From the NCBI GenBank assembly GCA_028909515.1, contig GCA_028909515.1_4811.1: a stretch of 64,000 nucleotides of DNA; one strand, written 5' to 3'. Each line of letters starts with the position of its first letter. Within the stretch, counting starts at the first letter, position 1. Below the pieces are notes generated by a model. That model saw only the letters and a program-made list of their open reading frames with translations, had not been told where the DNA came from and ran no database searches. Shown piece by piece: positions 21,481-36,619 of this stretch. Origin of the DNA: a phage. The translations under genes and the position numbers were made by a program.

Positions 21481-23868
21481 ATGCCAAGGCTAATATTCAA
21501 AAACAACTTTGAGGTCGCGCTTGCCCAGCCAACGACGACTTCAGACACCACCATCACAATTCGCTCAGGGTCGGGCTTTCCGACCTTGGGCGCAAACGAG
21601 CGTGTAGTGGCGACAATAGTCGACGCTGCGACAGGCCTCCAATTCGAAATCATCACAGTAACCGCCGTCGTCGGTGATGTCCTGACCGTTCAGCGTGCAC
21701 AGGAAGGGACTGCAGCGCGTGCATGGGCTGCTGGTGATTTGCTTTCCATTCGAACTACTGCTGCATCTTTGACCAACACCGTCCGAAATTACGGCGCAAT
21801 GCCATCAGGCATCAACTTGAATGCTCTTACAGGAAGTTGGTTTGGACAGTATTATCAGCCAGTAAGCTCAAATGCGCCAACAAACTTGAACTACCCAATA
21901 GCAGAGGCTGGCGTTTTACAAGTACTTCAAACTTCTGCAAATGGTTCAGAAAGCTGCATCCAAATATATACCACTTTTCAAAATAACATCACATTCCAAA
22001 GGACTTTTGTTGAATTATCAAGTTCATGGTCTAACTGGTCGAGAATAAGAAGGTTTACCGACATAGTAGGCATAGAGGCTGGCGGAACAGGTCAAACAAC
22101 CATTCAGGGGATGAAGTCTGCTTTTGGATTCGGAACAGTCGCTGATCAAGACATCGTTCCAACTTCCATGGGCGGCACAGGGTCAGCCGACAACGCGCAA
22201 GCATGGTTGAATATTCGCCCTCAAGGTTCAACGCCGCTTGCTGGCGACCCAGTGAATGATTATGATGCCGCGACCAAGCGTTGGGTAGAGAACTTGGTGA
22301 ACACAGGCACCGTTGGCCCAAGCATGAACGGTGTAATGAACTATGGCGTCGGCGACTTCCACTTGCGTGACAGTCGTGCATACATTCAACCATACGAAGT
22401 TGTTGCCGATGGGCAGTTGTTAAACCGCGCTGACTGGCCTGAGCTTTGGGCTTATGCGCAAATGCTTACGCCTATTGCTGATGCCGACTGGCTTGCTGAC
22501 CCACTTAAGCGCGGCAAGTATTCTTCAGGCAACGGCACAACAACATTCCGTGTACCAGACCGTAACGGTGTTCAGACAGGCAGCGTCAGAGCGCTATTTG
22601 CGCGCGGTGATGGCGGCAACTCGTCGAACGACGGAATGATCATGGAATCCTTCCTGCCAAACATCACTGGCAGCATCAACTTCCACGGGTCCGGCCCTGC
22701 AAGTGAACCAGGATCGGGAACGGTTGTCGCAAGTGCTGGCGGCGCATTCGTCAATGGAGAAGGATTCACCATTCCGCGATATGTTAGAGGCGTTTCGCTT
22801 TTAAGTTCTGGTGCGAACTCTTTGGGAAGCGTTGCGCTAAGAGCTTCTAACTCAAGCCCAGCTTACGGTCGTAACAACCTTGCAACAGATGAAGTATTGC
22901 CGCGCAACTTTTCAGGCGTTTGGGTTATTCGTGCATCTGGTGGATTTGTTGCTGCTAAAACTTCTTGGGAGGTTGTGAACGGTGACTCAGTTCTTCCAGG
23001 CCCAGGTACCACTGTTGACGGCGGCGAAGTAAAATCAAAATATAATGTTGGAACGACTCTGCAAGCCCAATTTAGTATGCGCGCACGCGCAGACGTTGGC
23101 GGGAACTATTATGGGCGTTTGAGCGTTTATAATGCTGCAAAAAGCGTCACCACTGTATATGATTTTGACGATACTGGTGCTATCACGCTTCCTCAAAACG
23201 CGTCAATAAGATCAGGGTCGATGAAATTCGACTTTGCCCAATCCACAGGCGAAGTGTATTGCGCCACCTCAAGATTGCGCGTCGCCCCGTTATCAGGCGG
23301 CCAAACGATGGGTATTACATCGCTCGGCGGCGGAGGCTTGCCTGCTGAAAGTGCCTGGTTCGAGCACTGGGGCAATAGCACAAGCGGAGGTTCAGACAGA
23401 ACGCGAGCGACAGTGGTTGAGTGCAAGGTTGGTGCTGATTACATGTGGTACTCGCAAAAGTTGACCACAGGAGCAAAAGAGTTGCGCGTCAACGGCGCTT
23501 GCATCGCAACGGCATTCACACAATCATCTGACAGAGACTTGAAAGAAAACATCCAAGTCATTCCAGATGCAACGGCAGCTTTGAGAAAGATGAGCGGCTA
23601 TACATACACCTTAAAAGAGGATGGCATGCCGCATGCTGGTGTCATAGCGCAAGAAGCAATGGAAGCGATTCCAGAGGCTGTCGGCTCTCAATATAAATAT
23701 CCAGAAGGTGATGAAGAAGGACTAATCCCTGAAAGATATTACACCGTTGACTATTCTGCAGTCACAGGCCTTCTGGTTCAAGTTTGTCGTGAAGCTGATG
23801 AAAGAATAACGGCGCTTGAAGAGAGGATTGCGAATCTGGAAGCGTTAATAAAAAGTATGGCGAAATAA
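21481..23868 (+). CDS. tail fibre protein with C-terminal intramolecular chaperone (peptidase S74-like) domain
   Basis: 795 aa; C-terminal 'SSDRDLKENIQVIP...GVIAQE...LIPERYYTVDY' matches the auto-cleaving chaperone domain of phage fibres and endosialidases; terminator follows. Confidence 0.8.
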   Translation: MPRLIFKNNFEVALAQPTTTSDTTITIRSGSGFPTLGANERVVATIVDAATGLQFEIITVTAVVGDVLTVQRAQEGTAARAWAAGDLLSIRTTAASLTNTVRNYGAMPSGINLNALTGSWFGQYYQPVSSNAPTNLNYPIAEAGVLQVLQTSANGSESCIQIYTTFQNNITFQRTFVELSSSWSNWSRIRRFTDIVGIEAGGTGQTTIQGMKSAFGFGTVADQDIVPTSMGGTGSADNAQAWLNIRPQGSTPLAGDPVNDYDAATKRWVENLVNTGTVGPSMNGVMNYGVGDFHLRDSRAYIQPYEVVADGQLLNRADWPELWAYAQMLTPIADADWLADPLKRGKYSSGNGTTTFRVPDRNGVQTGSVRALFARGDGGNSSNDGMIMESFLPNITGSINFHGSGPASEPGSGTVVASAGGAFVNGEGFTIPRYVRGVSLLSSGANSLGSVALRASNSSPAYGRNNLATDEVLPRNFSGVWVIRASGGFVAAKTSWEVVNGDSVLPGPGTTVDGGEVKSKYNVGTTLQAQFSMRARADVGGNYYGRLSVYNAAKSVTTVYDFDDTGAITLPQNASIRSGSMKFDFAQSTGEVYCATSRLRVAPLSGGQTMGITSLGGGGLPAESAWFEHWGNSTSGGSDRTRATVVECKVGADYMWYSQKLTTGAKELRVNGACIATAFTQSSDRDLKENIQVIPDATAALRKMSGYTYTLKEDGMPHAGVIAQEAMEAIPEAVGSQYKYPEGDEEGLIPERYYTVDYSAVTGLLVQVCREADERITALEERIANLEALIKSMAK

Positions 23869-25358: not shown

Positions 25359-26070
25359 TGGGTGTTGGTTATTTAACCGTGAATCGTGGGTCGTGAATCT
25401 TGGGTCGCTTAGTGCGGCCCTTTCTTTTGCCTGCCGTGCAGGAGTGTACTGCAAATTTACTGTGGGTACAAAATAGTACGGTACTGTCTAGGATTTTTTC
25501 TTTGAAAAGTTAGTGGACCAAATGTGTCGTATTTTGATTAGTGTACTACAAATTTCATCAAGTACCAAAACGCACCAAAAGACCCATGCCATAAAAACCA
25601 CACGAACGCAATAATCAATCGCCGTTACAGTTTCCAGCGTTACAATTCGAAAGCGAATGATTCGAAGCATAATAATATGAAGCATAATGATTCGAAAGCG
25701 AATGATTGCGTGTAGGATAATATCGGTGGGGATTATTCTAGATGCATGTAATTTCGCATGCGTACTATTTTCGGACGAAGGGTCGGCATATTCCTCGTTT
25801 TAGTTCGGAACGAAGGGAAAGTTTTGCGCCTTTATAAAACAACGACTTACGCGACCCTCCCTAACGGTCCGATATAGGTGTCTATATAAAACAACGACTT
25901 ACGCGATGTTCTCCATTTAACGTAATACCCGTTATGCGAACTAAGGCGCATCTCGGCGAAGATTATGCGACGACGAAGGGAAGGATAAAGGAGTTTTCGC
26001 GGAGAAGCGCATCGGGATAGGGACGAAGAAAAGCCGCGACTAAGCGCGGCCTATTAGTAACGGAAGGGTA
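25359..26070. repeat. repeat-dense non-coding region between convergent genes
   Basis: Two copies of ATAAAACAACGACTTACGCGA; GTGAATC(G/T)TGGGTCG twice; GTGTACT(G/A)CAAATTT twice; permuted repeats of CGAAAGCGAATGATT and GAAGCATAAT; about five ACGAAGGG-type copies. Confidence 0.6.
26015..26040 (-). terminator. rho-independent terminator of 26071..26361
   Basis: Minus-strand hairpin GCCGCG...CGCGGC followed by TTTTCTTC. Confidence 0.55.
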
Positions 26071-26361
26071 TTATAAGGAGACGATTTTAAAATAAGTTAC
26101 TTCGCCGCCAAGTTGCGGGACCGCGATATATTCGCCGCCGATTTCGGTAATCGTATAGACGAAGCCGTTGATGGTTACGCGGTAGGATACTACGTCCTCG
26201 TCGCGATACTTGTAAAGGTCGAGGAAGTTGATCGGCTCATAAATAGACTCGATAGTCGCGTCTACGTTAGAGAGATAAACGCTCTCTAAGGTTTCGCCAA
26301 ATACGTTAGAGTTTTCGGAAGTCTCGACGCGAGCGGAACGGATAGCGGATAAAGTAATCAT
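26071..26361 (-). CDS. small acidic protein, paralog family (copy A)
   Basis: 96 aa, Glu/Asp-rich; own promoter, AGGAG RBS and terminator; similar to 26995..27279 ('SIR.A.VE...NVD.TIE...NG..Y...EIG'). Confidence 0.6.
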   Translation of the reverse strand: MITLSAIRSARVETSENSNVFGETLESVYLSNVDATIESIYEPINFLDLYKYRDEDVVSYRVTINGFVYTITEIGGEYIAVPQLGGEVTYFKIVSL

Positions 26362-26427
26362 AATATTCTCCTAGTTAGTCGGGAGGGTAGCGACCTATTC
26401 GCTACCTCATCCCCTCTCGATATAAAC

Positions 26428-26456
26428 ATTATAGTCTTAGTGTACGAATAAGTAAA
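26428..26456 (-). promoter_or_regulatory. sigma70-like promoter for acidic paralog A
   Basis: Minus-strand TTTACT-N17-TATAAT with internal TACACT. Confidence 0.55.
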
Positions 26457-26466
26457 GCACTTTTCG

Positions 26467-26769
26467 TTATTCTGCGATAAAATATTTATAAGCTTTATCG
26501 CCTTCTATATCGAGATACTCGACGATAATTAACGCTTCGCCGCGCGGCGTAACGGTTTCGATGAGGGTTACGGTTTCGTCGTCGGCCCGAATGAAGCGGA
26601 TGGCGCTACGTTCGGCGTACTTAATCTCGTCGAAGGAAAGGCCGACGAAGGCGACCGCGCGGACTTTAATTCCGCTCCACTCTAGTTCCGCGTTAACGGC
26701 TTTAAGAAGAGAAGCGACGGTTAAGCGGTCTTCGTCGTAAGTAAGAAGAGAAGAAATTAAAGTAGCCAT
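26467..26769 (-). CDS. small acidic protein, paralog family (copy B)
   Basis: Start at 'MATLISS' behind GGGAG RBS; acidic; same promoter architecture as copies A and C. Confidence 0.55.
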   Translation of the reverse strand: MATLISSLLTYDEDRLTVASLLKAVNAELEWSGIKVRAVAFVGLSFDEIKYAERSAIRFIRADDETVTLIETVTPRGEALIIVEYLDIEGDKAYKYFIAE

Positions 26770-26825
26770 AATAAAACTCCCGATGCTAGTAGAAGGAAGG
26801 GCCATCACCCGTCTCGATATAAACA

Positions 26826-26854
26826 AGTATACGCGAGTGTACGAAGAAGTAAAG
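26826..26854 (-). promoter_or_regulatory. sigma70-like promoter for acidic paralog B
   Basis: Minus-strand TTTACT-N16-TATACT with internal TACACT. Confidence 0.55.
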
Positions 26855-26898
26855 AAAAAAAGATAAAATAATTTATCTCATTTTTATCGAAAAAGTGC

Positions 26899-26926
26899 TT
26901 TACTTTTTTCTACACTATATTATAAT
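26899..26926 (+). promoter_or_regulatory. sigma70-like promoter for acidic paralog C (divergent from B)
   Basis: GTGCTTTACTT-N-TACACT-N-TATAAT; -35 TTTACT, 16-bp spacer. Confidence 0.55.
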
Positions 26927-26994
26927 GTACTCATATCGGGACGGGATGAGTTAACGAATAGGTCGTTAACGCCTCTCCCAACTAGGAGTTTAAA

Positions 26995-27279
26995 ATGGCT
27001 ATTCTTAACGTTTCTTCTATTCGCAACGCTATCGTCGAGAACTACGGCGTAAAACAAATTTTATCCGAAGTCTACGCCGCGAACGTAGACCAAACTATCG
27101 AGGCGGGTGGGGTAACGGTCGCCGAGGCTTTTAAACTTTACGCGGCGCTACCGGAATCGGACCGCGAAGCCTTCGAAGTAAACGTTAACGGATACTTCTT
27201 CGAAGCGGTCGAAATCGGTAACATCTTACTCGTTATGGGCGAAGAAGAATTTGAGACCTTCTCCCTCGTCGAAGCGTAA
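26995..27279 (+). CDS. small acidic protein, paralog family (copy C)
   Basis: 94 aa, about 14 Glu versus 4 basic residues; AGGAG RBS; promoter TTTACT-N16-TATAAT upstream. Confidence 0.6.
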   Translation: MAILNVSSIRNAIVENYGVKQILSEVYAANVDQTIEAGGVTVAEAFKLYAALPESDREAFEVNVNGYFFEAVEIGNILLVMGEEEFETFSLVEA

Positions 27280-27359
27280 GAGAGGATTTTTAGAGCGTCG
27301 TGCGCGGCGCTTTAATAAAATTCTTTCGCGCCTAGCGCCCTAACAAATAGGAGTTTATT

Positions 27360-27986
27360 ATGGTTAGCTTAAATCGTTTCTCGACTAGCGGCGACGTTAT
27401 CGCAACTAAGACCGCCGACCTCGTTGCATTTTATAATGCAAATTCCGGTTCGAAGCCGATTAAGAAATTTGCGGACCGCCGGACCGCCGAGACTCGCGTA
27501 ATCGCGTTAATCGAGTCCTTAAACGCGCTCGATGAGCCGTCCAACGAATCGCCCATTCCCGACGCGAAGCCGCGCGAGGAAGTGTCCAGCGATGTAAAAA
27601 CGCATAAGGCGCGCGCGGTCGTTAAAAAGGCCGAGCCGACCCAGGAAGAACTCGACGCGATGAGCGATGAAGAGTATGAAGCCTTCGTTAAGAGCGGCTT
27701 AAACGATAGTGCGAATTGCGTAGTGCAAAATGGAACTCCTTCCCATCGCCGTTCGAATAGCGAAGGTATTGCAAAAAGTTGGGATAATAAGGAAGTGGCG
27801 CAAAAGCGTCTTACTCGTAACGGTGTTATGGTCGAGGGTGTAGGCGAGTTCAAATCGGTCCGCGTAGCGTTCGCCGCGCTGGGCTTACCGGATAGCAAGC
27901 ATATTCGCTTCCGCATGAAGCTTAAAGAAGCTGGACGCTTAAACTTCGAGTTCGGCAACAAGTCCTACACCTTCCAGATTATCTAA
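27360..27986 (+). CDS. hypothetical protein
   Basis: 208 aa; AGGAG RBS; CpG-rich, CTG-poor codon usage like the adjacent paralogs; hairpin terminator follows. Confidence 0.55.
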   Translation: MVSLNRFSTSGDVIATKTADLVAFYNANSGSKPIKKFADRRTAETRVIALIESLNALDEPSNESPIPDAKPREEVSSDVKTHKARAVVKKAEPTQEELDAMSDEEYEAFVKSGLNDSANCVVQNGTPSHRRSNSEGIAKSWDNKEVAQKRLTRNGVMVEGVGEFKSVRVAFAALGLPDSKHIRFRMKLKEAGRLNFEFGNKSYTFQII

Positions 27987-27992
27987 TCGAAT

Positions 27993-28014
27993 GGCGGCCC
28001 TTCGGGGTCGCTTT
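27993..28014 (+). terminator. rho-independent terminator after 27360..27986
   Basis: GCGGCCC-ttcg-GGGTCGC (one G-U pair) followed by TTTT. Confidence 0.5.
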
Positions 28015-28036
28015 TCATAGTGCAAATTGGTGGATT

Positions 28037-28300
28037 ATGAATACTCTTATTCTCATCGCTACGTTGTCCATCGGAAGTGGTCGCACCTTATCCCTTTATG
28101 ACCATAGTGCAAATTGCGCTTACCCTACGCGCGTTGCGGCGATAGTTAATAGTGCAAATAAGATGCTATTCGAGACTTGCTGGCGGGTCGATAACGAGAA
28201 AGGTCGGGTAGTCTTAGGTTATAGTGCAAATCTGCTGGTGGAGTCGTTCGATTGGACGGCTGAAGGTCGTAAATTGTTACGTAAAGTGACTAAAAGATGA
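28037..28300 (+). CDS. hypothetical protein with in-frame 'SAN' repeats (doubtful)
   Basis: 87-aa ORF carrying three in-frame copies of ATAGTGCAAAT, with further copies flanking it; may be a DNA-level repeat array, not a gene. Confidence 0.3.
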   Translation: MNTLILIATLSIGSGRTLSLYDHSANCAYPTRVAAIVNSANKMLFETCWRVDNEKGRVVLGYSANLLVESFDWTAEGRKLLRKVTKR

Positions 28301-28345
28301 CTTATAATAATACACTTTCTAACGCGTTTATGGTTGCAACCTTCC

Positions 28346-28402
28346 CCGTCGTATTACCGACGGCCCTAGAAGTGGAGAAAATGTGTTCTAGGGCCGTTTT
28401 AT
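28346..28402 (+). terminator. tandem-hairpin terminator
   Basis: CCGTCG-tattac-CGACGG, then CGGCCCTAGAA-N14-TTCTAGGGCCG followed by TTTTAT. Confidence 0.45.
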
Positions 28403-28414
28403 AGTGCAAATTGG

Positions 28415-28888
28415 CTAGTGGCGGGAGAATTGCTCGCCTTCTTTGGCCGCCTCTCCAAAATCCTTGTAGAAATCGTCCATAGAACGGCCCATTTTACTAT
28501 TGCCGTTTTCATCAATCATCGTGATGCCGTAGATGATATTCAGTTCACGAATAGCATTAAGCTTGGCTGACGCCGCGACTTCTGGATCACGCACAAGCTT
28601 GACCAAATTGTGAATTGCACCTTTTACGCTCCACAAATCCTTGAGTGGCATCTCTTCCATACGCTTTTTGAAGCGCATTTTGTAGTATGGGTTGCGTTGC
28701 GCGCAAAGGATTCGCTGGCCAGTGTAGTTATCCGTTGCAACTTCCATTCCAAATACTAGTGCAAAAGCTGCGCGCATGTCATGGCCCTGAATAACAAGGT
28801 CAATGAACTCATCGAATAAAGCCTGATTGTGCTCTGCAAATCGCGGGTCTTCAAAGTCTTCAGGCATCGCTACATAATCTTGACTCAT
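28415..28888 (-). CDS. hypothetical protein
   Basis: Start set at 'MSQDYVAM'; three ATAGTGCAAAT-type copies lie at or just upstream of the start. Confidence 0.5.
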   Translation of the reverse strand: MSQDYVAMPEDFEDPRFAEHNQALFDEFIDLVIQGHDMRAAFALVFGMEVATDNYTGQRILCAQRNPYYKMRFKKRMEEMPLKDLWSVKGAIHNLVKLVRDPEVAASAKLNAIRELNIIYGITMIDENGNSKMGRSMDDFYKDFGEAAKEGEQFSRH

Positions 28889-29029
28889 AGTGCAAAATCC
28901 CATAGTGCAAATTAATAGTGTGAATTATACAATGGATGGACATTATATTCAAGTGCAGATTGATGTTCATTATGGCTATAAACGTACACAAATCATAGTG
29001 CTGATAGAGTTGCGGACCGTGGTGCGTGG

Positions 29030-29365
29030 TGTACTGTTTGATACGTATAAAAGAAATCCATCCCTTTCGCCGCTTGCTATGCAAATCAATGACTTAGCCG
29101 CTGCTGGCTGGTTGAAGCGTATCATGACGTATCATCCGTATTGCCGCAAGTCTTTGTTTTTACTTATATCTTACGGATGATACGTATAAATATAAGTTTA
29201 GTATAAGTATGAGGATGTAGAAAAAAATTAATTTAAATTAATTCAAAATGGAGTTAATTAATTTTCTGGAATTCTATATATATTATGTTTGCACCCGTAT
29301 CATCCGTATCAGCGTATTTTTCCTTATAAATCAATAGCCCAATGATACGTCATGATACGTATGAA
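29030..29365. repeat. iteron-flanked AT-rich element, copy 2
   Basis: TACGGATGATACG-type iterons at about 29117-29140 (inverted), 29171-29187, 29294-29314 (inverted), 29342-29362 around an AT-rich core sharing 'AAAAAAATTAATTTAAATTAATT' and 'GAATTCTATATA' with copy 1. Confidence 0.7.
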
Positions 29366-29855
29366 TGACTGCCTTCGCGGCAAAACAATCCCAGTGTATA
29401 CCAACAATCCCAGGCGCGGCGCACCACAGGGCCACGGTACAATATCCTGTGAAGAGGTGACTCTCATTTCCTTATACGTATCATCATGGACTACGATTAC
29501 TAAAACTAAAAACATTATTAAAATTCTGAGCACCAACACCACAAGCACCAAGACCCACGGCTAACGCACCGTTAGCCAATACTCCACGATAAAATATCCT
29601 ATAAATTACAAACAATCCGCGTATATAATAGCACCATAATTATTTATTTTTGATTCAATATTTACACTAAAATAAGCCATTGTATTTTCCTCACTGTTCT
29701 ATCCGTATTATTTAGTGGATTAAACTGTCATAAATACTTATAAACGTTGATTGCCACAATATGCAATAATCTTGATAAATTATTATAATATTTTCGCTCT
29801 CTTAAATTACAGCCTTGAATCGTAAATAACCACAAAAAGCCTCACATTACACAGG

Positions 29856-29880
29856 CAAACAAAAAGGGCCAATCGGCCCT
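29856..29880 (-). terminator. rho-independent terminator ending the minus-strand early array
   Basis: Minus-strand GGGCC-gatt-GGCCC followed by TTTTTG. Confidence 0.6.
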
Positions 29881-29897
29881 CTTAACATTAATCATAA

Positions 29898-30350
29898 TTA
29901 AAATATAAAATTCTTCACTCCAAGCCTTTTGAATTCTTTCCTTAACATTATATTAAACTTCTTCAATTTAGTTTTATTCATCCTTAGCGGATTGTAGGTG
30001 AACACCTTTTCTATTACTTCCTTACGCATCTTTGAGCGCATATTAGTTAAGTAATAATTCTTGAACATATTAATAAGGTGATTGGCTTCCAGCTTAAGCT
30101 CAATTACTTCTTCCGATTCATCAAGCTCAAGCAGTCCTTTTTGCGTAAGAATATCTCTTAATATATCCTGACATTTCTTGCAATCACCTTTGCCTAAAAG
30201 CGAGTCGATGTAATCGCCGCTGACGCGCTCATCACCGAAATAAGTTGCGCGACCACAAAGGCTTTGCACTTCTCCTTCATCAAAGTAGTGCGCACGATGA
30301 GCCCACTTCGGTATGGCCCAACCAGCGGCGATAAGCTTTTTACCCATCAC
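29898..30350 (-). CDS. hypothetical protein
   Basis: 150-aa basic ORF, last gene of the minus-strand early array; terminator downstream. Confidence 0.5.
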   Translation of the reverse strand: MMGKKLIAAGWAIPKWAHRAHYFDEGEVQSLCGRATYFGDERVSGDYIDSLLGKGDCKKCQDILRDILTQKGLLELDESEEVIELKLEANHLINMFKNYYLTNMRSKMRKEVIEKVFTYNPLRMNKTKLKKFNIMLRKEFKRLGVKNFIF

Positions 30351-30772
30351 CCCTCCTTAACAACCCGATAAGCAATAATGTCGCTGCCTTTGAGTGCTCC
30401 TATATGACCCCAGTGAAGATGGTCAGAAAGTCTCGACAGTACTTTATCACCTCCATTGCGCAGCTTGTATTCAACAATCTCGCCAGGCACCGGATTCTCG
30501 CCACCAAACCACACGGTCCACGCTTCCTCCTTCGGCGCATCATCATCCACGCCTATAGTGGCAACAACGTCGTGCAACTGCTTAACGAGCGCCCACGCAT
30601 CACGGACCTGCGAGCGTAATGCAACCAACTCGCGTTGCGCTTCACCATATTTCGCTTCCAGCGCGGCATAGTCCTCATATTCAACGTAGCCGCCTTCATC
30701 ATCCTTTACAACTTCGCAGGTGCAAGCGTGCTGCGTGCAATAATCAACATCGTAACGTTGTATCATGATCAA
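30347..30772 (-). CDS. hypothetical protein with conserved C-terminal 'GG.NPVPG...DIIAYRVV' domain
   Basis: 141 aa; C-terminal domain shared with 32172..32672. Confidence 0.5.
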   Translation of the reverse strand: MIMIQRYDVDYCTQHACTCEVVKDDEGGYVEYEDYAALEAKYGEAQRELVALRSQVRDAWALVKQLHDVVATIGVDDDAPKEEAWTVWFGGENPVPGEIVEYKLRNGGDKVLSRLSDHLHWGHIGALKGSDIIAYRVVKEG

Positions 30773-31029
30773 TACTCCTTGTTTACTTCTTCAATTATTT
30801 TTTCGGCCAATTTGATTGCCTGTTCTTTGTTTAACACCAAACATGATGTTTCACTGTATATCGACAGCTCAACAAGATTGCAACCTCCTTCACCATCGTT
30901 GTAAAACTGAATGCTGCACACATCGCCGTCATTATCTTCAAACTCAAAGGTTGGGCATTCAGGGGTCCGAAGATTGCTCCTGTCCTTGAACATTTCTTTT
31001 AAGCAATCATTAATCATTTTAAGCTCCAA
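30769..31029 (-). CDS. hypothetical protein
   Basis: 86-aa acidic ORF, 4-nt overlap. Confidence 0.45.
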   Translation of the reverse strand: MELKMINDCLKEMFKDRSNLRTPECPTFEFEDNDGDVCSIQFYNDGEGGCNLVELSIYSETSCLVLNKEQAIKLAEKIIEEVNKEY

Positions 31030-31505
31030 GTATTTAACAGGGTGTTTCGTAAGTTCTGCACTTCTATCTTGAGAAGGTCAATTTGCAAGTCACGATGGGC
31101 CAGTTCAGCGGCGATGTCCGACTTGCTGTAAAGTCCTTCATGAGTCATGGCATAGATGTGGCGCGTATAATAGCCGCCCTCGTCGAGTTGCTCGATGTCA
31201 CGCTGCCCGACTGCGTATTGTTTATCGGTCGATGGCGCTGGGTCCTGGATTTTGATTGATTCGACTTCCTTCAATGAATCGCGTGATGCTGGCCTGTTCT
31301 CTTCGAACATCTTTCCATCACCAATTTGCTTGCACCAAAGCGAATCGCCAATTGCGTATCCCCACTGGCCGCGCCAATCGTTCCATGCAGGCTTCCCCTC
31401 ATACGCCCAGATGGTTCCGTTAGAGTCACGCGCAACGAATCGCGCACGAGCGTCTATTTCGTATTCTTTACCTTCAAAATTGATGCGCTGCGTTTTGTTA
31501 GTCAT
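31014..31505 (-). CDS. hypothetical protein
   Basis: 163-aa ORF in early array. Confidence 0.45.
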   Translation of the reverse strand: MTNKTQRINFEGKEYEIDARARFVARDSNGTIWAYEGKPAWNDWRGQWGYAIGDSLWCKQIGDGKMFEENRPASRDSLKEVESIKIQDPAPSTDKQYAVGQRDIEQLDEGGYYTRHIYAMTHEGLYSKSDIAAELAHRDLQIDLLKIEVQNLRNTLLNTWSLK

Positions 31506-31834
31506 GATGCATCCTTAGTTGGATAGAATTTAGGGTTGTTCTTATAGAACGCCTTGAGCCATGCCTTTGCTTCAGCAATGCTGCTGAACTCTTCCTTGGA
31601 GAGTCCGGTGCGGTCCTCGCCTGCGACCTTGAAATGGATGCGCACCTTGAGACGAAGGTTGGTTGCTCTCGCGTAGTGGCCTTCATAGCCGTCATGGTTA
31701 AGGCTTACTATCGCGGCGAGCATCTCGCAGTCTTCTTTATCGGGATTGCCGCTGTAACAAATCGGCCAGCCACGACGTTGGAATGACCTGTATGAGCCTG
31801 TCGGCTCAGGGTCCACGTACCATTTCAATTTCAT
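31502..31834 (-). CDS. hypothetical protein
   Basis: 110-aa ORF, 4-nt overlap. Confidence 0.45.
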   Translation of the reverse strand: MKLKWYVDPEPTGSYRSFQRRGWPICYSGNPDKEDCEMLAAIVSLNHDGYEGHYARATNLRLKVRIHFKVAGEDRTGLSKEEFSSIAEAKAWLKAFYKNNPKFYPTKDAS

Positions 31835-32172
31835 TTAACCTTCTCCAATTGGAATCTCGTTTCAGGAAAGCCCGCAACAAACATGTCACGGCCCTCTACA
31901 TCACGCTTCACAAACCATCTCATGCCGTTAACAACCGTGAAGACAATTTGCTTTCCATCAATAATAAGTCCTTTTGCCTCATAAAGCAAATAAGACTGAC
32001 CGACCTTGAAGATTGACAGTTCTTTGCCTGTGCTGGTGCACTTGAGCCGCCACTTGGTGAGATTGGATTCACTCGCCTCGATGTCAACAATCTTACCGCG
32101 CAGCGGCGATGTGCGCTGAAGCTCGGCCATCTGTTCATCGAACGTTAGCTCACGGCCTTCTTGCTCTTCCAT
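31831..32172 (-). CDS. hypothetical protein
   Basis: 113-aa ORF, 4-nt overlap. Confidence 0.45.
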   Translation of the reverse strand: MEEQEGRELTFDEQMAELQRTSPLRGKIVDIEASESNLTKWRLKCTSTGKELSIFKVGQSYLLYEAKGLIIDGKQIVFTVVNGMRWFVKRDVEGRDMFVAGFPETRFQLEKVK

Positions 32173-32672
32173 TATTCCTCCACGACGCGATAAGCGATGA
32201 TGTCATACCCCGATTCTTTATGACTCCAACGCCATTTTTCGGATTTTGAAGGAAAAATCGTCTTTGTGCCTTGCCTTACCGCCACGCGGACTAACTTGCC
32301 AGGCACCGGATTGTCGCCGCCATCCCAATCAATCCAACCGTCAGCAGTCTTTTGTTTATCCTTCAAATGCTCATGCTTCTCACCGATGTGGGCGACAGGT
32401 TGACGGCTTCCGTAATAGAATGCTAATGCAACGTCGTAGGATGGATGAGTATTCGAAAGACAGATGTCATCGCACCAAAGCTCCATGGTGCGCGACTTAA
32501 GCGTCATCATGTTAGTATACCACTCGATGGTGTAGTGGTCGTTAAGGTTGCCGACGATATAGAAGTTGCGACAAAAGTGCGCAGCGTCATCCGACTTCTC
32601 GCGGCTATAGCTTCTGATTGCGCCTGCCTTTACAGCCATTTCCAATACTGCTTCGAGTTGTTCGATTTTCAT
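32172..32672 (-). CDS. hypothetical protein with conserved C-terminal 'GG.NPVPG...DIIAYRVV' domain
   Basis: 166 aa; C-terminus 'WDGGDNPVPGKLV...YDIIAYRVVEE' paralogous to 30347..30772. Confidence 0.5.
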   Translation of the reverse strand: MKIEQLEAVLEMAVKAGAIRSYSREKSDDAAHFCRNFYIVGNLNDHYTIEWYTNMMTLKSRTMELWCDDICLSNTHPSYDVALAFYYGSRQPVAHIGEKHEHLKDKQKTADGWIDWDGGDNPVPGKLVRVAVRQGTKTIFPSKSEKWRWSHKESGYDIIAYRVVEE

Positions 32673-32905
32673 TTCTTTGCTCCTAGTTCAATTTGATAGC
32701 CGATTGACAATTCATTTTCGCCGATGTTGAATGCATCAACGGGCTGCGACATCACCGCTTTTAAATATACCTTCTTGCGCCGCTTCGCCTTGTACAGACA
32801 ACGGTCGCCGCTGCGGTTGTAGATGTTAAGCCAGGTGCGCTTGCTAATCTTATACGGCACATGCGGCTTGATGAACAGTAAACGGGCTTTAAGGTTGGAT
32901 GTCAT
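32669..32905 (-). CDS. hypothetical protein
   Basis: 78-aa basic ORF. Confidence 0.4.
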   Translation of the reverse strand: MTSNLKARLLFIKPHVPYKISKRTWLNIYNRSGDRCLYKAKRRKKVYLKAVMSQPVDAFNIGENELSIGYQIELGAKK

Positions 32906-33200
32906 AATAGTATTTTCCTCCTCTCATGTTCTCTTTAATTCCTTGTAATGCCTCGCGACCCTTCTTTGTCATCACCACGGATGAATAGCGCGTCGGGTCT
33001 TTCTCTCCTGGCACCGCCCAATCAACAAGGCCCAACCGGAATAAGACAGGGATTGATGGCGCATTGATGTCGTGAAACAGTGATGGCCGCTTTTCATAAG
33101 CCTTCTTGCAATCGCCGCGCAGCATGTATGGCGTTCCGTCTTCCATGCGATATAATGTCTGAATCTGAGCTAGGCTTAATCTCATTGCTGTCTTCTCCAA
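32889..33200 (-). CDS. hypothetical protein
   Basis: 103-aa ORF. Confidence 0.4.
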   Translation of the reverse strand: MEKTAMRLSLAQIQTLYRMEDGTPYMLRGDCKKAYEKRPSLFHDINAPSIPVLFRLGLVDWAVPGEKDPTRYSSVVMTKKGREALQGIKENMRGGKYYYDIQP

Positions 33201-33367
33201 ACTGCGTGTAATGTTTTCTGGTCAAACTTGGACAGCGTTTCACGCTCCGAAGCCTTAAGGAATCGCGTGCCAAAGAACAGCATGCCTTGCGGCGTTTTAA
33301 CGAGTGACACGCCTTTGTTGCGGTAGAAGCTTACCAGTGCTGATGCGTTATGGACTTCGGTACTCAT
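33182..33367 (-). CDS. hypothetical protein
   Basis: 61-aa ORF. Confidence 0.35.
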   Translation of the reverse strand: MSTEVHNASALVSFYRNKGVSLVKTPQGMLFFGTRFLKASERETLSKFDQKTLHAVWRRQQ

Positions 33368-33669
33368 AAAACGCCTCCAAAAGTCGCAACACGAATGCCG
33401 CGACGCTCAAACGTTAACATAGGATTAATACCCGTCGCGCAGGTGATGTAAGCGTCATCGGCGACAAGGTCATAACCGCCTGCGCAAAGAATGAAGGTCG
33501 TGTCGCTGTTCTTCAAGAGCATAACAGCAGCTGCCGCACCTTTCTTGTTCTTAAAGAAGAATACTGGTTCACCGCCTTCTTGCGTCTCTTTGAACTCCTG
33601 AATAGCGCCGCACTCTACTGCGGCCTGCATCACCTTCAACAACTTGCTCTTCATCGCTTCGGTGCTCAT
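33364..33669 (-). CDS. hypothetical protein
   Basis: Start set at 'MSTEAMK' behind strong RBS AGGAGAGG; promoter/terminator composite upstream. Confidence 0.5.
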   Translation of the reverse strand: MSTEAMKSKLLKVMQAAVECGAIQEFKETQEGGEPVFFFKNKKGAAAAVMLLKNSDTTFILCAGGYDLVADDAYITCATGINPMLTFERRGIRVATFGGVL

Positions 33670-33697
33670 AATAACCTCTCCTTTGCTTGATGAAGTA

Positions 33698-33745
33698 AGT
33701 ATAATACAGACAAATAAAAAGGCAAGCAATTAGCTCACCTTTTTG
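33698..33745 (-). promoter_or_regulatory. terminator-promoter composite element (copy 1)
   Basis: Minus strand: AAAAAGGTGAGC-taatt-GCTTGCCTTTTT hairpin whose 3' arm supplies -35 TTGCCT, 16-bp spacer, -10 TATACT, then TACTTCATCAAG. Confidence 0.5.
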
Positions 33746-33747
33746 AA

Positions 33748-34008
33748 TTAAATCTGATCGGCTTCTTCGTGTAGACCAACTGACCTTAACTTACGCCGCA
33801 AGTAAGCTTTCTTTTCACACTCGCGTCCGGCTGGCGTGACGCGGTACTTTAATGTGTTCTCTCTATTCTTGCGTCGGTTGTTCTCGTCGAGTAGCTCTAC
33901 CAGCGCCTTTGCGTCGTCGAGTGTTAACACCACGGGCCGCGACCCATTAACGGCCTGTCGAAGCTTCCGCGCGGCAAGGGCCAGTGGCGTCATCGGTCCC
34001 TTATTCAA
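33748..34008 (-). CDS. hypothetical protein
   Basis: 86-aa basic ORF. Confidence 0.45.
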   Translation of the reverse strand: MNKGPMTPLALAARKLRQAVNGSRPVVLTLDDAKALVELLDENNRRKNRENTLKYRVTPAGRECEKKAYLRRKLRSVGLHEEADQI

Positions 34009-34397
34009 GCCAACTCCTTATTCATCGGCGTGATGGACAAGACCTTTACTTCAGTGATGTCGCGGTTGTATTCGCGCTTGATTTGAAGAATCTGGGATTG
34101 GATGCGCGCGATGAAGTGCGGCGTGACTCCTTCCTTAACGTTAATCCAGGCCGCAAGCTGCATTGAGTCGATGTCGCTTCTCATCACCGTTGGGCAGTTG
34201 ATGGTACTTGGTGCACCGTTCGCGCCGTAGGCCAGTTGGGAATCATAAGCCGAATACCTGAACGCAACCAGGAACATTCGCTCTTCAAGCTGGCTTTCGC
34301 TTCTTGGATTCTTATCGCAACCAGACATGTGCTGCACAAACTCTTCATGCGGAAGGTGCATGACGTCGTGGCAATAAGGGCAACGTTTCATTCTCAT
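34005..34397 (-). CDS. hypothetical protein, possible zinc-binding (CxxC/H cluster)
   Basis: 130 aa; N-terminal 'CPYCHDVMHLPHEEFVQHMSGC'. Confidence 0.45.
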   Translation of the reverse strand: MRMKRCPYCHDVMHLPHEEFVQHMSGCDKNPRSESQLEERMFLVAFRYSAYDSQLAYGANGAPSTINCPTVMRSDIDSMQLAAWINVKEGVTPHFIARIQSQILQIKREYNRDITEVKVLSITPMNKELA

Positions 34398-34630
34398 TTT
34401 GCATACTCCATAGCATATCGCTGCAACTTGAATGCAGCCTTGTTTAGTTGCTTGTGTCTTGCGTACAAGCGCTCACGTTCTTCTTCAGGGCAATCGGCAC
34501 GAAGAATAGACATGGCAATACTTGACATGGCATTAAGGGTGCGCTGAAAGGCAGACACCATGCGCAACTCATTGCGCTTATTAAAAGACAACTTACCCAG
34601 CGCGGCATTCATAATTGCACCTCGACACAC
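34394..34630 (-). CDS. hypothetical protein
   Basis: 78-aa ORF, 4-nt overlap. Confidence 0.45.
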   Translation of the reverse strand: MCRGAIMNAALGKLSFNKRNELRMVSAFQRTLNAMSSIAMSILRADCPEEERERLYARHKQLNKAAFKLQRYAMEYAK

Positions 34631-34926
34631 GATTCACTGGCCTTGAAGCTCCAGCCTTCCAGACCGACTTCGCCGCAACAGCGCACCTTTGCCCAGCCAG
34701 TCATGAGCCATTGGTGATACTTTTCGAAGTATGTCGGCTTTTCTGAGTAACAATGAACAAGGCCGTTATCGTCAATGGCCACGTAACGCGTCCAAGGTGC
34801 AACGGGTACAACTACGTCGGGGTGGCCTTCTGGCCAAGGCTTGGTGTGTACAGCTGTGTTCAAGTCTATGTTTAACACGCTTCCTAACCGCTCGTCTTGT
34901 TCCTTGTCGATGCCTAAGTAAATCAT
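34609..34926 (-). CDS. hypothetical protein
   Basis: 105-aa ORF; RBS GAGGTG; promoter/terminator composite upstream. Confidence 0.5.
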   Translation of the reverse strand: MIYLGIDKEQDERLGSVLNIDLNTAVHTKPWPEGHPDVVVPVAPWTRYVAIDDNGLVHCYSEKPTYFEKYHQWLMTGWAKVRCCGEVGLEGWSFKASESCVEVQL

Positions 34927-34958
34927 AATTCACCTCACTTGTTCGCCTTGATGAAAAG

Positions 34959-35006
34959 AGTATAAATATTGATAAAAGAAAAGGCAAGCATTTAGCTCAC
35001 CTTTTG
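34959..35006 (-). promoter_or_regulatory. terminator-promoter composite element (copy 2)
   Basis: Minus strand: AAAAGGTGAGC-taaat-GCTTGCCTTTT hairpin, -35 TTGCCT, 17-bp spacer, -10 TATACT, then CTTTTCATCAAG. Confidence 0.5.
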
Positions 35007-35010
35007 ATAT

Positions 35011-35205
35011 TCATTTCTGCTTTATGTATTCATCAACTATGTCGATTATGTATCGATGCTCAACAAGCCACTCAAGCATACTTTCCGGTCTTACGTCGCC
35101 GTTTGGAACGCTTCCATAAAGCGTGCAACTGGCATAACAATCCATGAAGTTCTTTATTGCAGCGGCCTTATCAAGAGTTTTCTGTATGTCTAGTTTAACA
35201 CTCAT
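35011..35205 (-). CDS. hypothetical protein
   Basis: 64-aa ORF, RBS AAAGGTGA. Confidence 0.4.
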   Translation of the reverse strand: MSVKLDIQKTLDKAAAIKNFMDCYASCTLYGSVPNGDVRPESMLEWLVEHRYIIDIVDEYIKQK

Positions 35206-35223
35206 AAATCACCTTTTTGATAT

Positions 35224-35556
35224 TCATTTTACATAGTGGAGTAGATCAATCTCTATCTGATCACGCGTCCTTGTTATCTTTGTATCACCCGTCCGGTGAG
35301 AGAATCGATAGATGGTCAACTCTCCGTCACCTCCCCTATCGAACTTCATGTTGGCTAGTCGACAAGCATATATTGCATTAAGCTTATTACCATAAGACAA
35401 GATGTTAAATGTCAAAACGGTATTGCCCATCCTCACATTCTCTTTTATGCACCTCTTTAAGAAGTAATAGGACTCGGCAAAAGCGTTTTGTCTTTTCCAG
35501 ATTTCTTTAACCTTCTCACGCTCATGCGCGGCGAGTATCTGATCACGGGTCATCAC
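35224..35556 (-). CDS. hypothetical protein
   Basis: 110-aa ORF. Confidence 0.45.
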   Translation of the reverse strand: MMTRDQILAAHEREKVKEIWKRQNAFAESYYFLKRCIKENVRMGNTVLTFNILSYGNKLNAIYACRLANMKFDRGGDGELTIYRFSHRTGDTKITRTRDQIEIDLLHYVK

Positions 35557-35789
35557 TGCACCTCTGTTATTCCGGTAATTCGAACGATGACGGTGTCATC
35601 CAAATTGAACTGCTGCCGCGCGACGCGTTTGATGTCGTCCTTAAGGTCGGCAATCAACTCCCTTGTTAACACTGTACGCTCTGAAACGTCATATTGAACG
35701 TCAAAGGTATACTCGCCATAGAATACCGCGCCATTGGGAAGCTGCACGACATAGAATGCCATATACATGGCGTTGATATAATCTTCCAT
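35553..35789 (-). CDS. hypothetical protein
   Basis: Start trimmed to 'MEDYINAMYMAF' so the gene abuts the upstream stop (TAATG overlap). Confidence 0.45.
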   Translation of the reverse strand: MEDYINAMYMAFYVVQLPNGAVFYGEYTFDVQYDVSERTVLTRELIADLKDDIKRVARQQFNLDDTVIVRITGITEVQ

Positions 35790-36136
35790 TATACATTCTC
35801 CACGGGTCGACGGATGAGTTTGCGTAATCCTTCGGGCCATACCTTCTTGATGACGGCCTTCGCTGGGCTTGATGAAAGCTTCTTCAGCTTCAATAGGACA
35901 CATCCTTCATCATCGTTCGGTTGCACCTGGATAACGACTCGCGCTTGTCGGTCGATGACCATGACATCACCAATGCGAATGTCCTTCACCAACACGCCCA
36001 TCTCCTTCGTGCCGGATACACCAATCACATGGTCACATCGAACGCGCGGCGGGAGTAGCGTTCCACCGTCAGCCATCTCACGCACGCGCTTCTTAATCTC
36101 TGCACCGTATAACACTTCGTCTTTAACATGAGCCAT
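35789..36136 (-). CDS. hypothetical protein
   Basis: 115-aa ORF. Confidence 0.45.
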   Translation of the reverse strand: MAHVKDEVLYGAEIKKRVREMADGGTLLPPRVRCDHVIGVSGTKEMGVLVKDIRIGDVMVIDRQARVVIQVQPNDDEGCVLLKLKKLSSSPAKAVIKKVWPEGLRKLIRRPVENV

Positions 36137-36617: not shown

Positions 36618-36619
36618 AA

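What the first reader, a model, noticed from the sequence alone, without database searches (positions are those of the whole stretch)
29030..29365. Second copy of the iteron-flanked AT-rich element, in a 1-kb gene-poor region after the early-operon terminator
Same TACGGATGATACG-type iterons in both orientations around an AT-rich core sharing 'AAAAAAATTAATTTAAATTAATT' and 'GAATTCTATATA' with copy 1. The surrounding ~1 kb (28904-29897) has only short, overlapping, low-quality ORFs and is probably non-coding. Like copy 1, it lies upstream in minus-strand sense of a gene (28415..28888). Two dispersed copies argue for a functional cis element, not chance.
Basis: seen in the sequence. Interest (0 to 1): 0.6.

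Follow-up and report, generated by a model that had tools for sequence, protein, structure and literature searches.

The report
Phage genome end and packaging site
The repeat-flanked AT-rich element is real, and it sits exactly where this E. coli phage's DNA is cut to make one end of the packaged genome, just upstream of the small terminase gene, so it is most likely the long-unidentified packaging start site of PB1-like phages.

Summary
The window is a Wifcevirus (PB1-like E. coli myophage).

Copy 2 is a 445-bp nested palindrome (29039-29483). Nine TGATACG units surround a core of 15% GC. 17 of the 21 TGATACG in the window lie in the two copies.

New here: three independently deposited relatives with resolved ends (WFH, Mansfield by PhageTerm, Ro157lw) place the left boundary of their 3.5-3.7 kb direct terminal repeat at the same base. 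That base is window 29249|29250, inside the invariant AACTCC|ATTTT and 5-10 bp from the palindrome centre.

The gene 361 bp downstream (28415..28888, minus) is the small terminase (PDB 7UXE, E = 7e-34).

Copy 1 (13160-13460) keeps the repeats and AT core, is 97-99% conserved, and lacks the cut motif. It lies upstream of the scaffold/protease gene.

The same two-site layout, with lineage-specific repeat sequences, occurs in Pbunavirus E215 and Serratia phage Hera. In Pbunavirus Ab27 the published fixed genome end also falls in the core of the terS-proximal site.

Best reading: a pac/cos-like packaging initiation site, with copy 1 as an uncut paralogue. What binds the repeats is inferred, not shown. 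A replication origin and a late-gene regulatory site remain live rivals.

The parts
29039..29483 (.). Whole copy-2 element: a nested palindrome of nine TGATACG units around an AT-rich core
   Evidence: Palindrome centres fall at 29238.5-29244.5 for the inner pairs and the core pair.
29039..29050 (+). Outer-left repeat TGATACGTATAA, pairing with 29472-29483
   Evidence: I5, 100% complementary. Conserved at +204 from the cut in all variants.
29118..29141 (-). Double repeat CGTATCATGACGTATCATCCGTAT, with units 10 bp apart
   Evidence: I7; I1. Near-invariant in 9 genomes.
29146..29160 (-). Spacer motif AAAACAAAGACTTGC between inverted repeats. It matches the IHF consensus with one mismatch.
   Evidence: 5 hits in the window against 0.32 expected. 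The others are at 13410, 25836 and 25888, plus one 1-mismatch hit at 54979 that lies in none of these regions..
29172..29185 (+). Inner-left repeat TACGGATGATACGT
   Evidence: I3, I4. It varies at one base in relatives (GGATAATACG or GGATAGTACG).
29186..29295 (.). AT-rich core, with 15% GC in 29190-29279
29240..29259 (.). Terminus junction AATTCAAAAT|GGAGTTAATT. The left boundary of the direct terminal repeat falls between 29249 and 29250.
   Evidence: WFH, Mansfield, Ro157lw. The motif AACTCC|ATTTT is invariant in 11 variants and the 20-mer is unique in the window.
29296..29311 (-). Inner-right double repeat CGTATCATCCGTATCA, lying outside the terminal repeat
   Evidence: (D19). It is always at -62/-53 from the cut in four unrelated flank types.
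29342..29362 (+). Double repeat ATGATACGTCATGATACGTAT, the mirror of 29118-29135
   Evidence: I1, 18 nt, 100%.
29472..29485 (-). Outer-right repeat TTATACGTATCATC
   Evidence: I2, I5.
28415..28888 (-). Small terminase gene (terS), starting 361 nt from the cut
   Evidence: PDB 7UXE (E217 TerS), E = 7.3e-34 over residues 3-147. Annotated as TerS in the Mansfield record.
28924..28969 (-). Two overlapping sigma-70-like promoter matches between the element and terS
   Evidence: 10 of 12 matches each. These are consensus matches only.
29857..29883 (-). Intrinsic terminator ending the upstream minus-strand operon
   Evidence: (annotated in WFH).
29486..29856 (.). Variable non-coding spacer
25578..29249 (.). 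Inferred direct terminal repeat of this phage (3672 bp), collapsed to one copy in the window
   Evidence: Both junction sequences in the window are identical to those of WFH.
13160..13460 (.). Copy 1: a paralogous element with eight TGATACG units and an AT-rich core but no cut motif. It lies upstream of the scaffold/protease gene 11648..13069(-).

Best explanation
Copy 2 is where one physical end of the packaged genome is made, and it is most likely the packaging-initiation site, comparable to pac or cos.

Shown, by exact sequence identity with relatives whose ends were determined: the left boundary of the 3.67-kb direct terminal repeat falls at 29249|29250. That is in the invariant AACTCC|ATTTT, 5-10 bp from the centre of the palindrome, in the least stable DNA of the region, and 361 bp upstream of terS.

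Inferred mechanism:
1. The TGATACG repeats occur in pairs one helical turn apart and mirror each other on both sides of the core. They dock the recognition component of the terminase, most simply the ring-shaped small subunit.
2. A bend at the AAAACAAnnACTTrC spacer may help.
3. The large subunit then nicks or cuts in the easily melted core, and DNA on the terS side becomes the genome's left end.
4. Because the ends are exact 3.7-kb repeats, a second specific event at 25577|25578 and duplication of the repeat, as in T7, are also needed. An origin-like AT core would suit strand-displacement synthesis from a nick.

Copy 1 binds the same factor but is not cut, because the 13-nt cut segment is replaced there. 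Its role is open. It could be a partner site for synapsis, a regulator of the scaffold/capsid operon, or a second origin.
For: 1. Terminus position.
- WFH (exact 3701-bp repeat), Mansfield (3673 bp, PhageTerm) and Ro157lw (3533 bp) come from three laboratories. All have the identical left junction ...TTAACTCC|ATTTT and right junction ...GGGTCTTT|TGGTGCG.
- The WFC contig also starts 360 nt before terS.
- The Mansfield record starts exactly at window 29249.

2. The neighbouring gene is TerS.

3. Geometry. The nested perfect inverted repeats are centred at 29238.5-29244.5.

4. Selection on position. In 11 natural variants with four unrelated outside flanks, the repeat pair stays at -62/-53 and the inner sites stay at +70, +108-126 and +204. 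The cut motif is invariant.

5. Conservation. The inner half is 94.7-98.6% identical in relatives, against 93-98% for terS.

6. Cross-genus parallel.
- In Pbunavirus, inverted repeats CTTAGTGCCGCG.../...CGCGGCACTAAG flank an AT-rich core about 500 nt upstream of terS.

7. The element stays linked to terS. In Wifcevirus it sits next to terS although the primase/helicase genes are about 9 kb away.

8. Copy 1 has TTAAAATTATATATC where copy 2 has TAACTCC|ATTTTG. No Wifcevirus record starts at copy 1.
Against: - No binding data exist. E217 TerS showed no appreciable DNA binding in vitro (PMC9611059).
- A second repeat family could equally be the TerS recognition array. It is TAGTGCAAA, with 9 exact copies in one orientation at 27721-28911, inside the terminal repeat.
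- The termini were determined in relatives, not in this phage.
- Reports on Pbunavirus ends conflict. JG024 and Banzai show no fixed ends.
- The right boundary of the repeat carries no TGATACG repeats and shares no motif with the left junction, so the element cannot explain both cuts.
- A pure packaging role does not explain why a second copy is kept at 97-99% identity upstream of the scaffold gene in three genera.
- The architecture fits SF3-helicase origins equally well.
Confidence: 0.5

Rival explanations
1. Both copies are replication origins. A phage initiator, for example the VapE-like SF3 helicase working with the RepB-type primase, binds the mirrored repeats and melts the AT-rich core. 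The genome end falls there only because the terminase, or the synthesis that duplicates the terminal repeat, exploits the melted origin.
For: - Repeats on both sides of a roughly 110-bp core of 15% GC match the SaPI origin layout and palindromic SF3-helicase origins. This comparison rests on my own knowledge.
- The phage encodes a RepB primase domain (41342..42424) and a VapE-like helicase (38362..40032).
- In Pbunavirus E215, Burkholderia WTB and Serratia Hera the element lies directly 3' of that primase/helicase gene.
- Two dispersed copies recall SPP1 oriL/oriR or P4 ori/crr (own knowledge).
- No other repeat-rich origin candidate was seen. The divergent region 42425-42585 has none.
Against: - There is no direct evidence of replication initiation.
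- No DnaA boxes occur in copy 2.
- The elements do not match any plasmid origin.
- The cumulative GC-skew minimum lies at about 42-43 kb, not at either copy. In Pbunavirus the skew minima lie in the polymerase gene and at the divergent junction, about 6 kb from the terS-proximal site. Skew here mostly follows gene direction, so this point is weak.
- In Wifcevirus the element stayed with terS, not with the helicase.
Confidence: 0.22
2. The two elements are a shared regulatory module for late genes. A phage factor bound at the repeats controls promoters that drive terS and the scaffold-capsid operon. The cut site merely lies in this intergenic region.
For: - Both copies sit between a terminator and the start of a minus-strand late gene.
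- The pair lies upstream of terS and of the protease/scaffold gene in three genera, in the same orientation relative to those genes in Pbunavirus and Hera.
- The LMA2 record annotates predicted sigma-70 promoters in the Pbunavirus head-proximal site.
- The E215 head-proximal core contains TATAGCCTGGGAAATT, which matches the CTGGG phage-specific promoter motif reported for 14-1 (PMC10914365).
Against: - No promoter-like hexamer pair was found inside either Wifcevirus core. The best matches lie outside the element, at 28924-28969 and 13093-13121.
- Other late operons (terL, portal, tail) have no copy.
- Regulation does not explain why the repeats outside the terminal repeat keep fixed distances from the cut across unrelated flanks.
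- No transcription start data are available for Wifcevirus, and the 14-1 supplement was not held.
Confidence: 0.13
3. It is a chance AT-rich similarity, or a small mobile element (MITE-like) with terminal inverted repeats that inserted twice.
For: The inverted terminal repeats and two dispersed copies resemble a MITE superficially.
Against: - The counts and alignment scores lie far above shuffles.
- Both copies are at the same places in all 29 Wifcevirus genomes.
- Equivalent pairs lie at the same two gene junctions in Pbunavirus (297 records for the head-proximal site) and in Myosmarvirus.
- There are no other copies, no presence/absence polymorphism and no matches in plasmids.
Confidence: 0.02

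Closest known systems
Phage lambda cos (cosN-cosB with gpNu1 R sites and the IHF site I1, followed by gene Nu1)
   Same: - The cut lies near a centre of symmetry.
- Repeated recognition sites in inverted orientation are separated by about 31 nt, and that spacer contains an IHF-like motif on the terS side of the cut (29127-29185).
- The small terminase gene follows immediately.
   Different: - The ends here are 3.7-kb direct repeats, not 12-nt cohesive ends.
- Repeats occur on both sides of the cut.
- A second, uncut copy lies 16 kb away.
- The IHF match has a mismatch in the conserved ATCAA.
- Binding is untested. The details of lambda are from my own knowledge.
Bacillus phage SPP1 pac (pacL-pacC-pacR)
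   Same: TerS contact sites lie on both sides of the cleavage region, next to or overlapping the terS gene. [quoted passage not shown]
   Different: - SPP1 packages by headful and gives permuted ends, whereas Wifcevirus has exact ends.
- The SPP1 boxes are not a nested palindrome.
- The TerS here belongs to the E217 decamer family, not the SF6/SPP1 family.
T7/T3 concatemer-junction processing (exact direct terminal repeats)
   Same: Exact terminal repeats need specific events at both repeat boundaries and duplication of the repeat. In T7, promoter/origin-like elements near the ends take part in packaging (own knowledge).
   Different: The repeat here is 3.7 kb, against 160-230 bp in T7/T3. There is no phage RNA polymerase. 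The small terminase and the site sequences are unrelated.
T4 gp16 'twin-ring pac synapsis' (two homologous sites near genes 16 and 19)
   Same: One terS-proximal site and a second homologous site among late structural genes are proposed to be bound together by small-terminase rings (PMC9611059).
   Different: T4 has no unique cut site and packages by headful. The T4 model is itself not general. No synapsis evidence exists here.
SaPI / P4 / SV40-type origins bound by SF3 helicases
   Same: Short repeats in mirrored sets flank an AT-rich region of 80-110 bp. A VapE-like SF3 helicase and a primase are encoded. In relatives the element lies 3' of the helicase/primase gene.
   Different: No initiation has been shown. 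A mapped genome end lies in the core. In Wifcevirus the helicase gene is about 9 kb away.

Membership tests
Terminase recognition/cleavage site (pac/cos class) | Contains the position at which a mature genome end is generated | tested here: met
   Three records with resolved ends share the junction that maps to 29249|29250. The window is identical across the 20-nt junction. The result is by homology. This phage's own reads were not available.
Terminase recognition/cleavage site (pac/cos class) | Lies in or next to the small terminase gene | tested here: met
   terS (7UXE homologue, E = 7e-34) starts 361 nt from the cut.
Terminase recognition/cleavage site (pac/cos class) | Small terminase binds specific sequences at the site | not testable with these tools
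   This needs EMSA, footprinting or ChIP. The E217 homologue showed no appreciable binding in vitro.
Headful pac site (SPP1/P22 type) | One fixed end, permuted and terminally redundant genomes, non-specific termination cut | tested here: not met
   Wifcevirus records have two exact boundaries and a fixed 3.5-3.7 kb repeat. The Pbunavirus relatives may fit.
Lambda-type cos site | Short single-stranded cohesive ends from staggered nicks | tested here: not met
   The ends are long direct repeats.
T7-type direct-terminal-repeat ends | Exact direct repeat at both ends with sequence-specific boundaries | tested here: met
   Left and right junctions are identical in three records. The repeat length (3.7 kb) falls in PhageTerm's 'long DTR' class, not the T7-like class.
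Iteron-type replication origin | Multiple copies of a short repeat next to an AT-rich unwinding region | tested here: met
Iteron-type replication origin | Initiator gene in cis or adjacent | tested here: inconclusive
   Not adjacent in this window: the helicase is at 38362..40032 and the primase at 41342..42424. Adjacent in Pbunavirus, Burkholderia WTB and Serratia Hera.
Iteron-type replication origin | Host DnaA boxes | tested here: not met
   No match to TTATNCACA with up to 1 mismatch in 29000-29520. Two 1-mismatch matches occur near copy 1, about background density.
Iteron-type replication origin | Replication initiates there | not testable with these tools
   This needs marker-frequency analysis or 2D gels. 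GC skew gives no signal at either copy.
MITE / small mobile element | Variable presence among related genomes, target-site duplications, many copies | tested here: not met
   Positions are fixed in 29 Wifcevirus genomes, and for the head-proximal site in 297 Pbunavirus genomes. There are only two copies.
Sigma-70 promoter region | -35/-10 hexamers with proper spacing inside the element | tested here: not met
   None in either core at the scan threshold. Matches lie outside the element, and their number does not exceed shuffles.

The most novel reading that the evidence does not exclude
The terS-proximal (cut) element and the head-gene-proximal (uncut) element form an ancient two-site system shared by PB1-like phages (Wifcevirus, Pbunavirus, Myosmarvirus). 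In this reading one sequence-specific factor, possibly the decameric small terminase, binds both sites. Either it synapses them to license the first cut on concatemers, or it couples scaffold/capsid gene expression to packaging. The same palindromic AT-core sites may also serve as start points for the DNA synthesis that duplicates the terminal repeat. That would make a combined origin and packaging site.
Probability: 0.15. Interest if true: 0.8.

Novelty: new variant of a known kind. Interest (0 to 1): 0.6.

Why it matters
PB1-like phages are among the Pseudomonas phages most used for therapy, and Wifcevirus phages are candidates against E. coli O157. How they recognise their own DNA for packaging is unresolved. 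The E217 small terminase has a solved structure but no known DNA site. Reports on Pbunavirus genome ends conflict.

A defined site would make this directly testable. The site offered here is a short repeat (TGATACG here, CGCGGCACTAAG in Pbunavirus) mirrored around a mapped cut next to terS. It can be tested by band-shift assays, plasmid-packaging assays and rebooted mutant genomes.

It also shows how closely related terminases could give exact 3.7-kb repeats in one genus and apparently headful ends in another.

It is practical knowledge for synthetic rebooting and for judging transduction risk.

The conserved uncut second copy upstream of the scaffold gene is unexplained and could point to a link between packaging and head-gene control or replication.

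Tried and rejected
- Rfam, permissive over 25000-30200 and at gathering threshold over the whole window, and tRNA search found nothing. An RNA gene in the gene-poor kilobase is unsupported.
- The six short ORFs in 28860-29615 have no PHROG hits.
- The promoter scan gave counts no higher than shuffles, with nothing in the cores.
- The DnaA-box search was negative for copy 2. The IHF consensus gave one perfect match (29084), and the conserved spacer motif matches with one mismatch. This is a lead only.
- The plasmid collection has no match to copy 1, so the element is not a borrowed plasmid origin.
- An IMG/VR scan with TerS returned only near-identical relatives, so covariation between TerS and the repeats within the genus could not be tested. 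TerS is at least 95% identical in all Wifcevirus.
- GC skew follows gene orientation and is uninformative for an origin.
- The divergent region 42425-42585 was checked as an alternative origin. It has no repeats.
- The left and right terminal-repeat junctions share no motif, and neither recurs elsewhere at the 20-nt level. A single cut-site consensus for both ends is rejected.
- The supplement with 14-1 transcription start coordinates is not held, so the promoter rival could not be tested against data.
- The E215 record start lies in the core of its head-proximal site, 13 nt from the position homologous to the Ab27 end. The source paper gives no method for the ends, so I did not count it as evidence.

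Full report
**What the window is.** Region 28000-31000 matches 29 phage records. All are Wifcevirus: about 68-kb E. coli/Shigella myophages such as WFH, FEC19, ECML-117, vB_Eco4M-7 and Bas98-101. The best matches are 96% identical.

The gene map is:
- Structural genes on the minus strand from 162 to 20068. These include the major capsid gene 9874..11013, the scaffold/protease gene (DUF2213) 11648..13069, a head-fibre-like gene 13633..14646, portal 15414..17822 and TerL 18608..20068.
- A tail fibre gene 21481..23868 on the plus strand.
- Small genes up to 28888.
- A minus-strand block 29898..42424 of small early-type genes, plus a VapE-like helicase (38362..40032) and a RepB-type primase (41342..42424).
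- Plus-strand replication genes from 42911 onward.

**Checking the observation.** The repeats are real and non-random.
- TACGGATGATACG occurs exactly nine times, only at 13182-13441 and 29128-29308. With up to 2 mismatches there are 11 hits against 1.0 expected.
- The minimal unit TGATACG occurs 21 times against 6.25 +/- 2.2 expected. Eight lie in copy 1 and nine in 29039-29483.
- The units come mostly in pairs 9-10 bp apart.

Copy 2 is larger than reported. It is a nested palindrome with perfect inverted pairs 29172-84/29296-308, 29118-35/29342-59 and 29039-50/29472-83, and a core pair 29224-33/29256-65. The inner and core pairs are centred at 29238.5-29244.5. The core is 15% GC.

The two copies align well above shuffles. 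The scores are 90 and 87 in the two orientations against 20 +/- 2.4. The AT cores alone score 46 against 25.6 +/- 4.8, with 0 of 500 shuffles as good. So the similarity is not just low complexity.

The surrounding kilobase looks non-coding:
- None of its ORFs matches a PHROG family.
- No gene is called in the gap in 10 independent contigs.
- There is no Rfam hit.
- 29312-29856 is replaced by unrelated sequence in other members of the genus.

The terminator after gene 29898..30350 lies at 29857-29883.

**The key finding: a genome end lies in the core.** Korf et al. reported a terminal repeat of about 3.7 kb for WFC and WFH (PMC6563267).

In the WFH record the repeat is an exact 3701 bp. Its left boundary reads ...AATTAACTCC|ATTTTGAATT..., which is window 29249|29250.

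[quoted passage not shown] Its record starts at exactly the same base: window 28900-29249 equals Mansfield 350-1.

Ro157lw, from a third laboratory, has an exact 3533-bp repeat with the same left junction and the same right junction ...GGGCATGGGTCTTT|TGGTGCG.... The WFC contig also begins 360 nt before terS.

Both 20-nt junctions are present and unique in the window. The inferred terminal repeat of this phage is therefore 25578..29249, collapsed to one copy in the assembly. The cut lies 5-10 bp from the palindrome centre, in the least stable DNA of the region.

**The neighbouring gene.** 28415..28888 (minus strand) is the small terminase.
- It matches PDB 7UXE, the decameric TerS of Pbunavirus E217, with E = 7.3e-34 over nearly its full length.
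- It is annotated as TerS in the Mansfield record.
- Pfam has no model for it.
- According to a review, E217 TerS showed no appreciable DNA binding in vitro, its gene lies far from terL, and no pac site is known (PMC9611059).

**Evidence of selection.**

| Element | Comparison set | Result |
|---|---|---|
| Copy 1 | 7 aligned genomes | 395 of 427 columns invariant; the AT core and nearly all repeat units are invariant (two single-base changes) |
| Copy 1 | 4 relatives | 97.3-98.7% identical, against 87-93% for the adjacent head-fibre gene |
| Copy 2, half inside the terminal repeat | 4 relatives | 94.7-98.6% identical, against 93-98% for terS |

Outside the terminal repeat the flank diverges into four unrelated sequence types. 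Even so, in all 11 variants examined:
- the TGATACG pair stays at -62/-53 from the cut;
- the inner sites stay at +70, +108-126 and +204;
- AACTCC|ATTTT is invariant.

Copy 1 is not cut-competent by this criterion. In the same register it has TTAAAATTATATATC where copy 2 has TAACTCC|ATTTTG. No Wifcevirus record starts at copy 1.

A 15-nt spacer motif, AAAACAAnnACTTrC, lies between inverted repeats in both copies (13410, 29146). It also occurs twice about 260-320 nt inside the right boundary of the terminal repeat (25836, 25888). There are 5 hits against 0.32 expected. It matches the IHF consensus with one mismatch.

**Conservation beyond the genus.** TerS relatives at 31-41% identity occur in Pbunavirus and in Serratia, Burkholderia, Xanthomonas, Pantoea and Aeromonas phages. 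In E215, Hera and WTB, terS is preceded by a 0.5-1 kb non-coding gap directly after a primase/helicase gene.

In Pbunavirus E215 this gap holds inverted repeats CTTAGTGCCGCGTGGGCTTGAA / TTGAAAGCCTCGCGGCACTAAG around a 161-nt AT-rich core. A second, collinear copy lies upstream of the head protease/scaffold gene, which is the position of Wifcevirus copy 1. That second copy is conserved in 297 Pbunavirus records.

Serratia phage Hera has the same arrangement with yet another sequence. The local score is 128 against 22 +/- 2 for shuffles.

So the two sites co-evolve within each lineage. This points to a shared trans-acting factor, or to gene conversion between the copies.

[quoted passage not shown] That nucleotide maps to E215 46282, inside the core of the terS-proximal site and about 20 nt from its centre. 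Other Pbunavirus studies found no fixed ends, so this parallel is supportive but not settled.

**Interpretation.**

| Reading | Confidence |
|---|---|
| Position of the genome end | about 0.9, by homology |
| Element is the packaging-initiation site | about 0.6 |
| The repeats are small-terminase docking sites | about 0.4 |
| Composite explanation | 0.5 |
| Replication origin(s) | 0.22 |
| Late-gene regulatory module | 0.13 |
| Chance or mobile element | 0.02, effectively excluded |

The layout resembles three known systems:
- lambda cosN-cosB-Nu1, with inverted recognition sites around a bend site and terS next door;
- SPP1 pacL-pacC-pacR, with contacts on both sides of the cut;
- T7, in needing exact events at both boundaries plus duplication of the repeat.

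The main rival is a replication origin. Mirrored repeats around an AT core are also the layout of SaPI and SF3-helicase origins. The phage encodes a VapE-like helicase and a RepB-type primase, and in relatives the site abuts that gene. Two copies would parallel SPP1 oriL/oriR. Nothing tested here excludes this. A combined role is plausible, because duplicating the terminal repeat needs DNA synthesis from a nick.

A third rival is a shared late-gene regulatory module. Both copies precede late genes and follow terminators. The Pbunavirus head-proximal core carries the CTGGG motif of 14-1 phage-specific promoters. The first caveat is that no promoter-like hexamers lie in the Wifcevirus cores. The second is that other late operons lack the element.

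**Caveats.**
- The ends were determined in relatives, not in this phage.
- The direction of packaging is not established.
- The right boundary has no TGATACG repeats and a different junction sequence.
- A second striking repeat family, TAGTGCAAA, is an alternative candidate for terminase recognition. It has nine exact copies in one orientation, all within 27721-28911 and inside the terminal repeat. It is conserved in seven other Wifcevirus genomes.

**Novelty.** The terminal-repeat coordinates and the TerS annotation exist in GenBank records. None of the papers I could read describes the repeats, the palindrome around the cut, the second copy or the cross-genus two-site pattern. I rate this a new variant of a known kind of packaging site, with an unexplained conserved partner site.

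Noticed in passing
window 27707-28911: There are nine exact copies of TAGTGCAAA (consensus aTAGTGCAAAt) plus one near copy, all on the plus strand and all inside the terminal repeat within 1.5 kb of the genome end. There are none elsewhere in the 64 kb on either strand. They overlie genes of both strands, and two copies flank the terS start codon. The array is conserved at the same positions in ECML-117, EC150, Eco4M-7, TH35, WFH, Mansfield and Ro157lw. It may be a packaging, ejection or regulatory signal, and it competes with the TGATACG repeats as the TerS recognition array.
   Followed up: partly
window 25400-25910: The right boundary of the terminal repeat maps to 25577|25578. Several repeats lie nearby. 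Just outside the repeat are two copies of GTGTACT(G/A)CAAATTT (25441-25457, 25541-25555), which resemble the TAGTGCAAA family. Inside it are GAATGATTCGAA-type direct repeats (25636-25723) and two copies of TATAAAACAACGACTTACGCGA (25830-25854, 25882-25906). The last pair shares the spacer motif found in both TGATACG elements.
   Followed up: partly
window 26071-27279: An inverted duplication lies inside the terminal repeat. Genes 26071..26361(-) and 26995..27279(+) are paralogues (33% identity, E = 5e-7). They face away from each other around gene 26467..26826(-). They are bracketed by inverted repeats 26359-26423/26933-26997 (65 nt, 75%) and 26438-26464/26891-26917 (27 nt, 89%).
   Followed up: partly
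L011/L012 (Pbunavirus E215, NC_042080) record start: The E215 record begins inside the AT-rich core of its head-proximal element, 13 nt from the position homologous to the Ab27 fixed end in the terS-proximal element. The source paper gives no method for the ends. It could be a real second cut site or an assembly break in AT-rich DNA.
   Followed up: partly
L030-L039 (contigs encoding the identical TerS): The identical TerS protein is indexed in 216 blocks of the public collection. These include 68-kb contigs inside two NCBI 'genome' assemblies (GCA_016658885.1, GCA_012087555.1) and human or animal metagenomes. These phages are therefore common, and they turn up as full-length contigs in bacterial assemblies.
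   Followed up: no
window 30474-30520 and 32290-32336: A 47-nt direct repeat (77% identity) reflects a shared C-terminal motif (...GGxNPVPGxxV...IIAYRVV) in two early-region proteins, 30347..30772(-) and 32172..32672(-). This is a small paralogous family of unknown function.
   Followed up: no
window 13463-13478: A weak minus-strand terminator-like hairpin (z = -1.4) sits immediately upstream of copy 1. Copy 1, like copy 2, therefore lies between a terminator and the next late gene's promoter-like site (13093-13121).
   Followed up: partly
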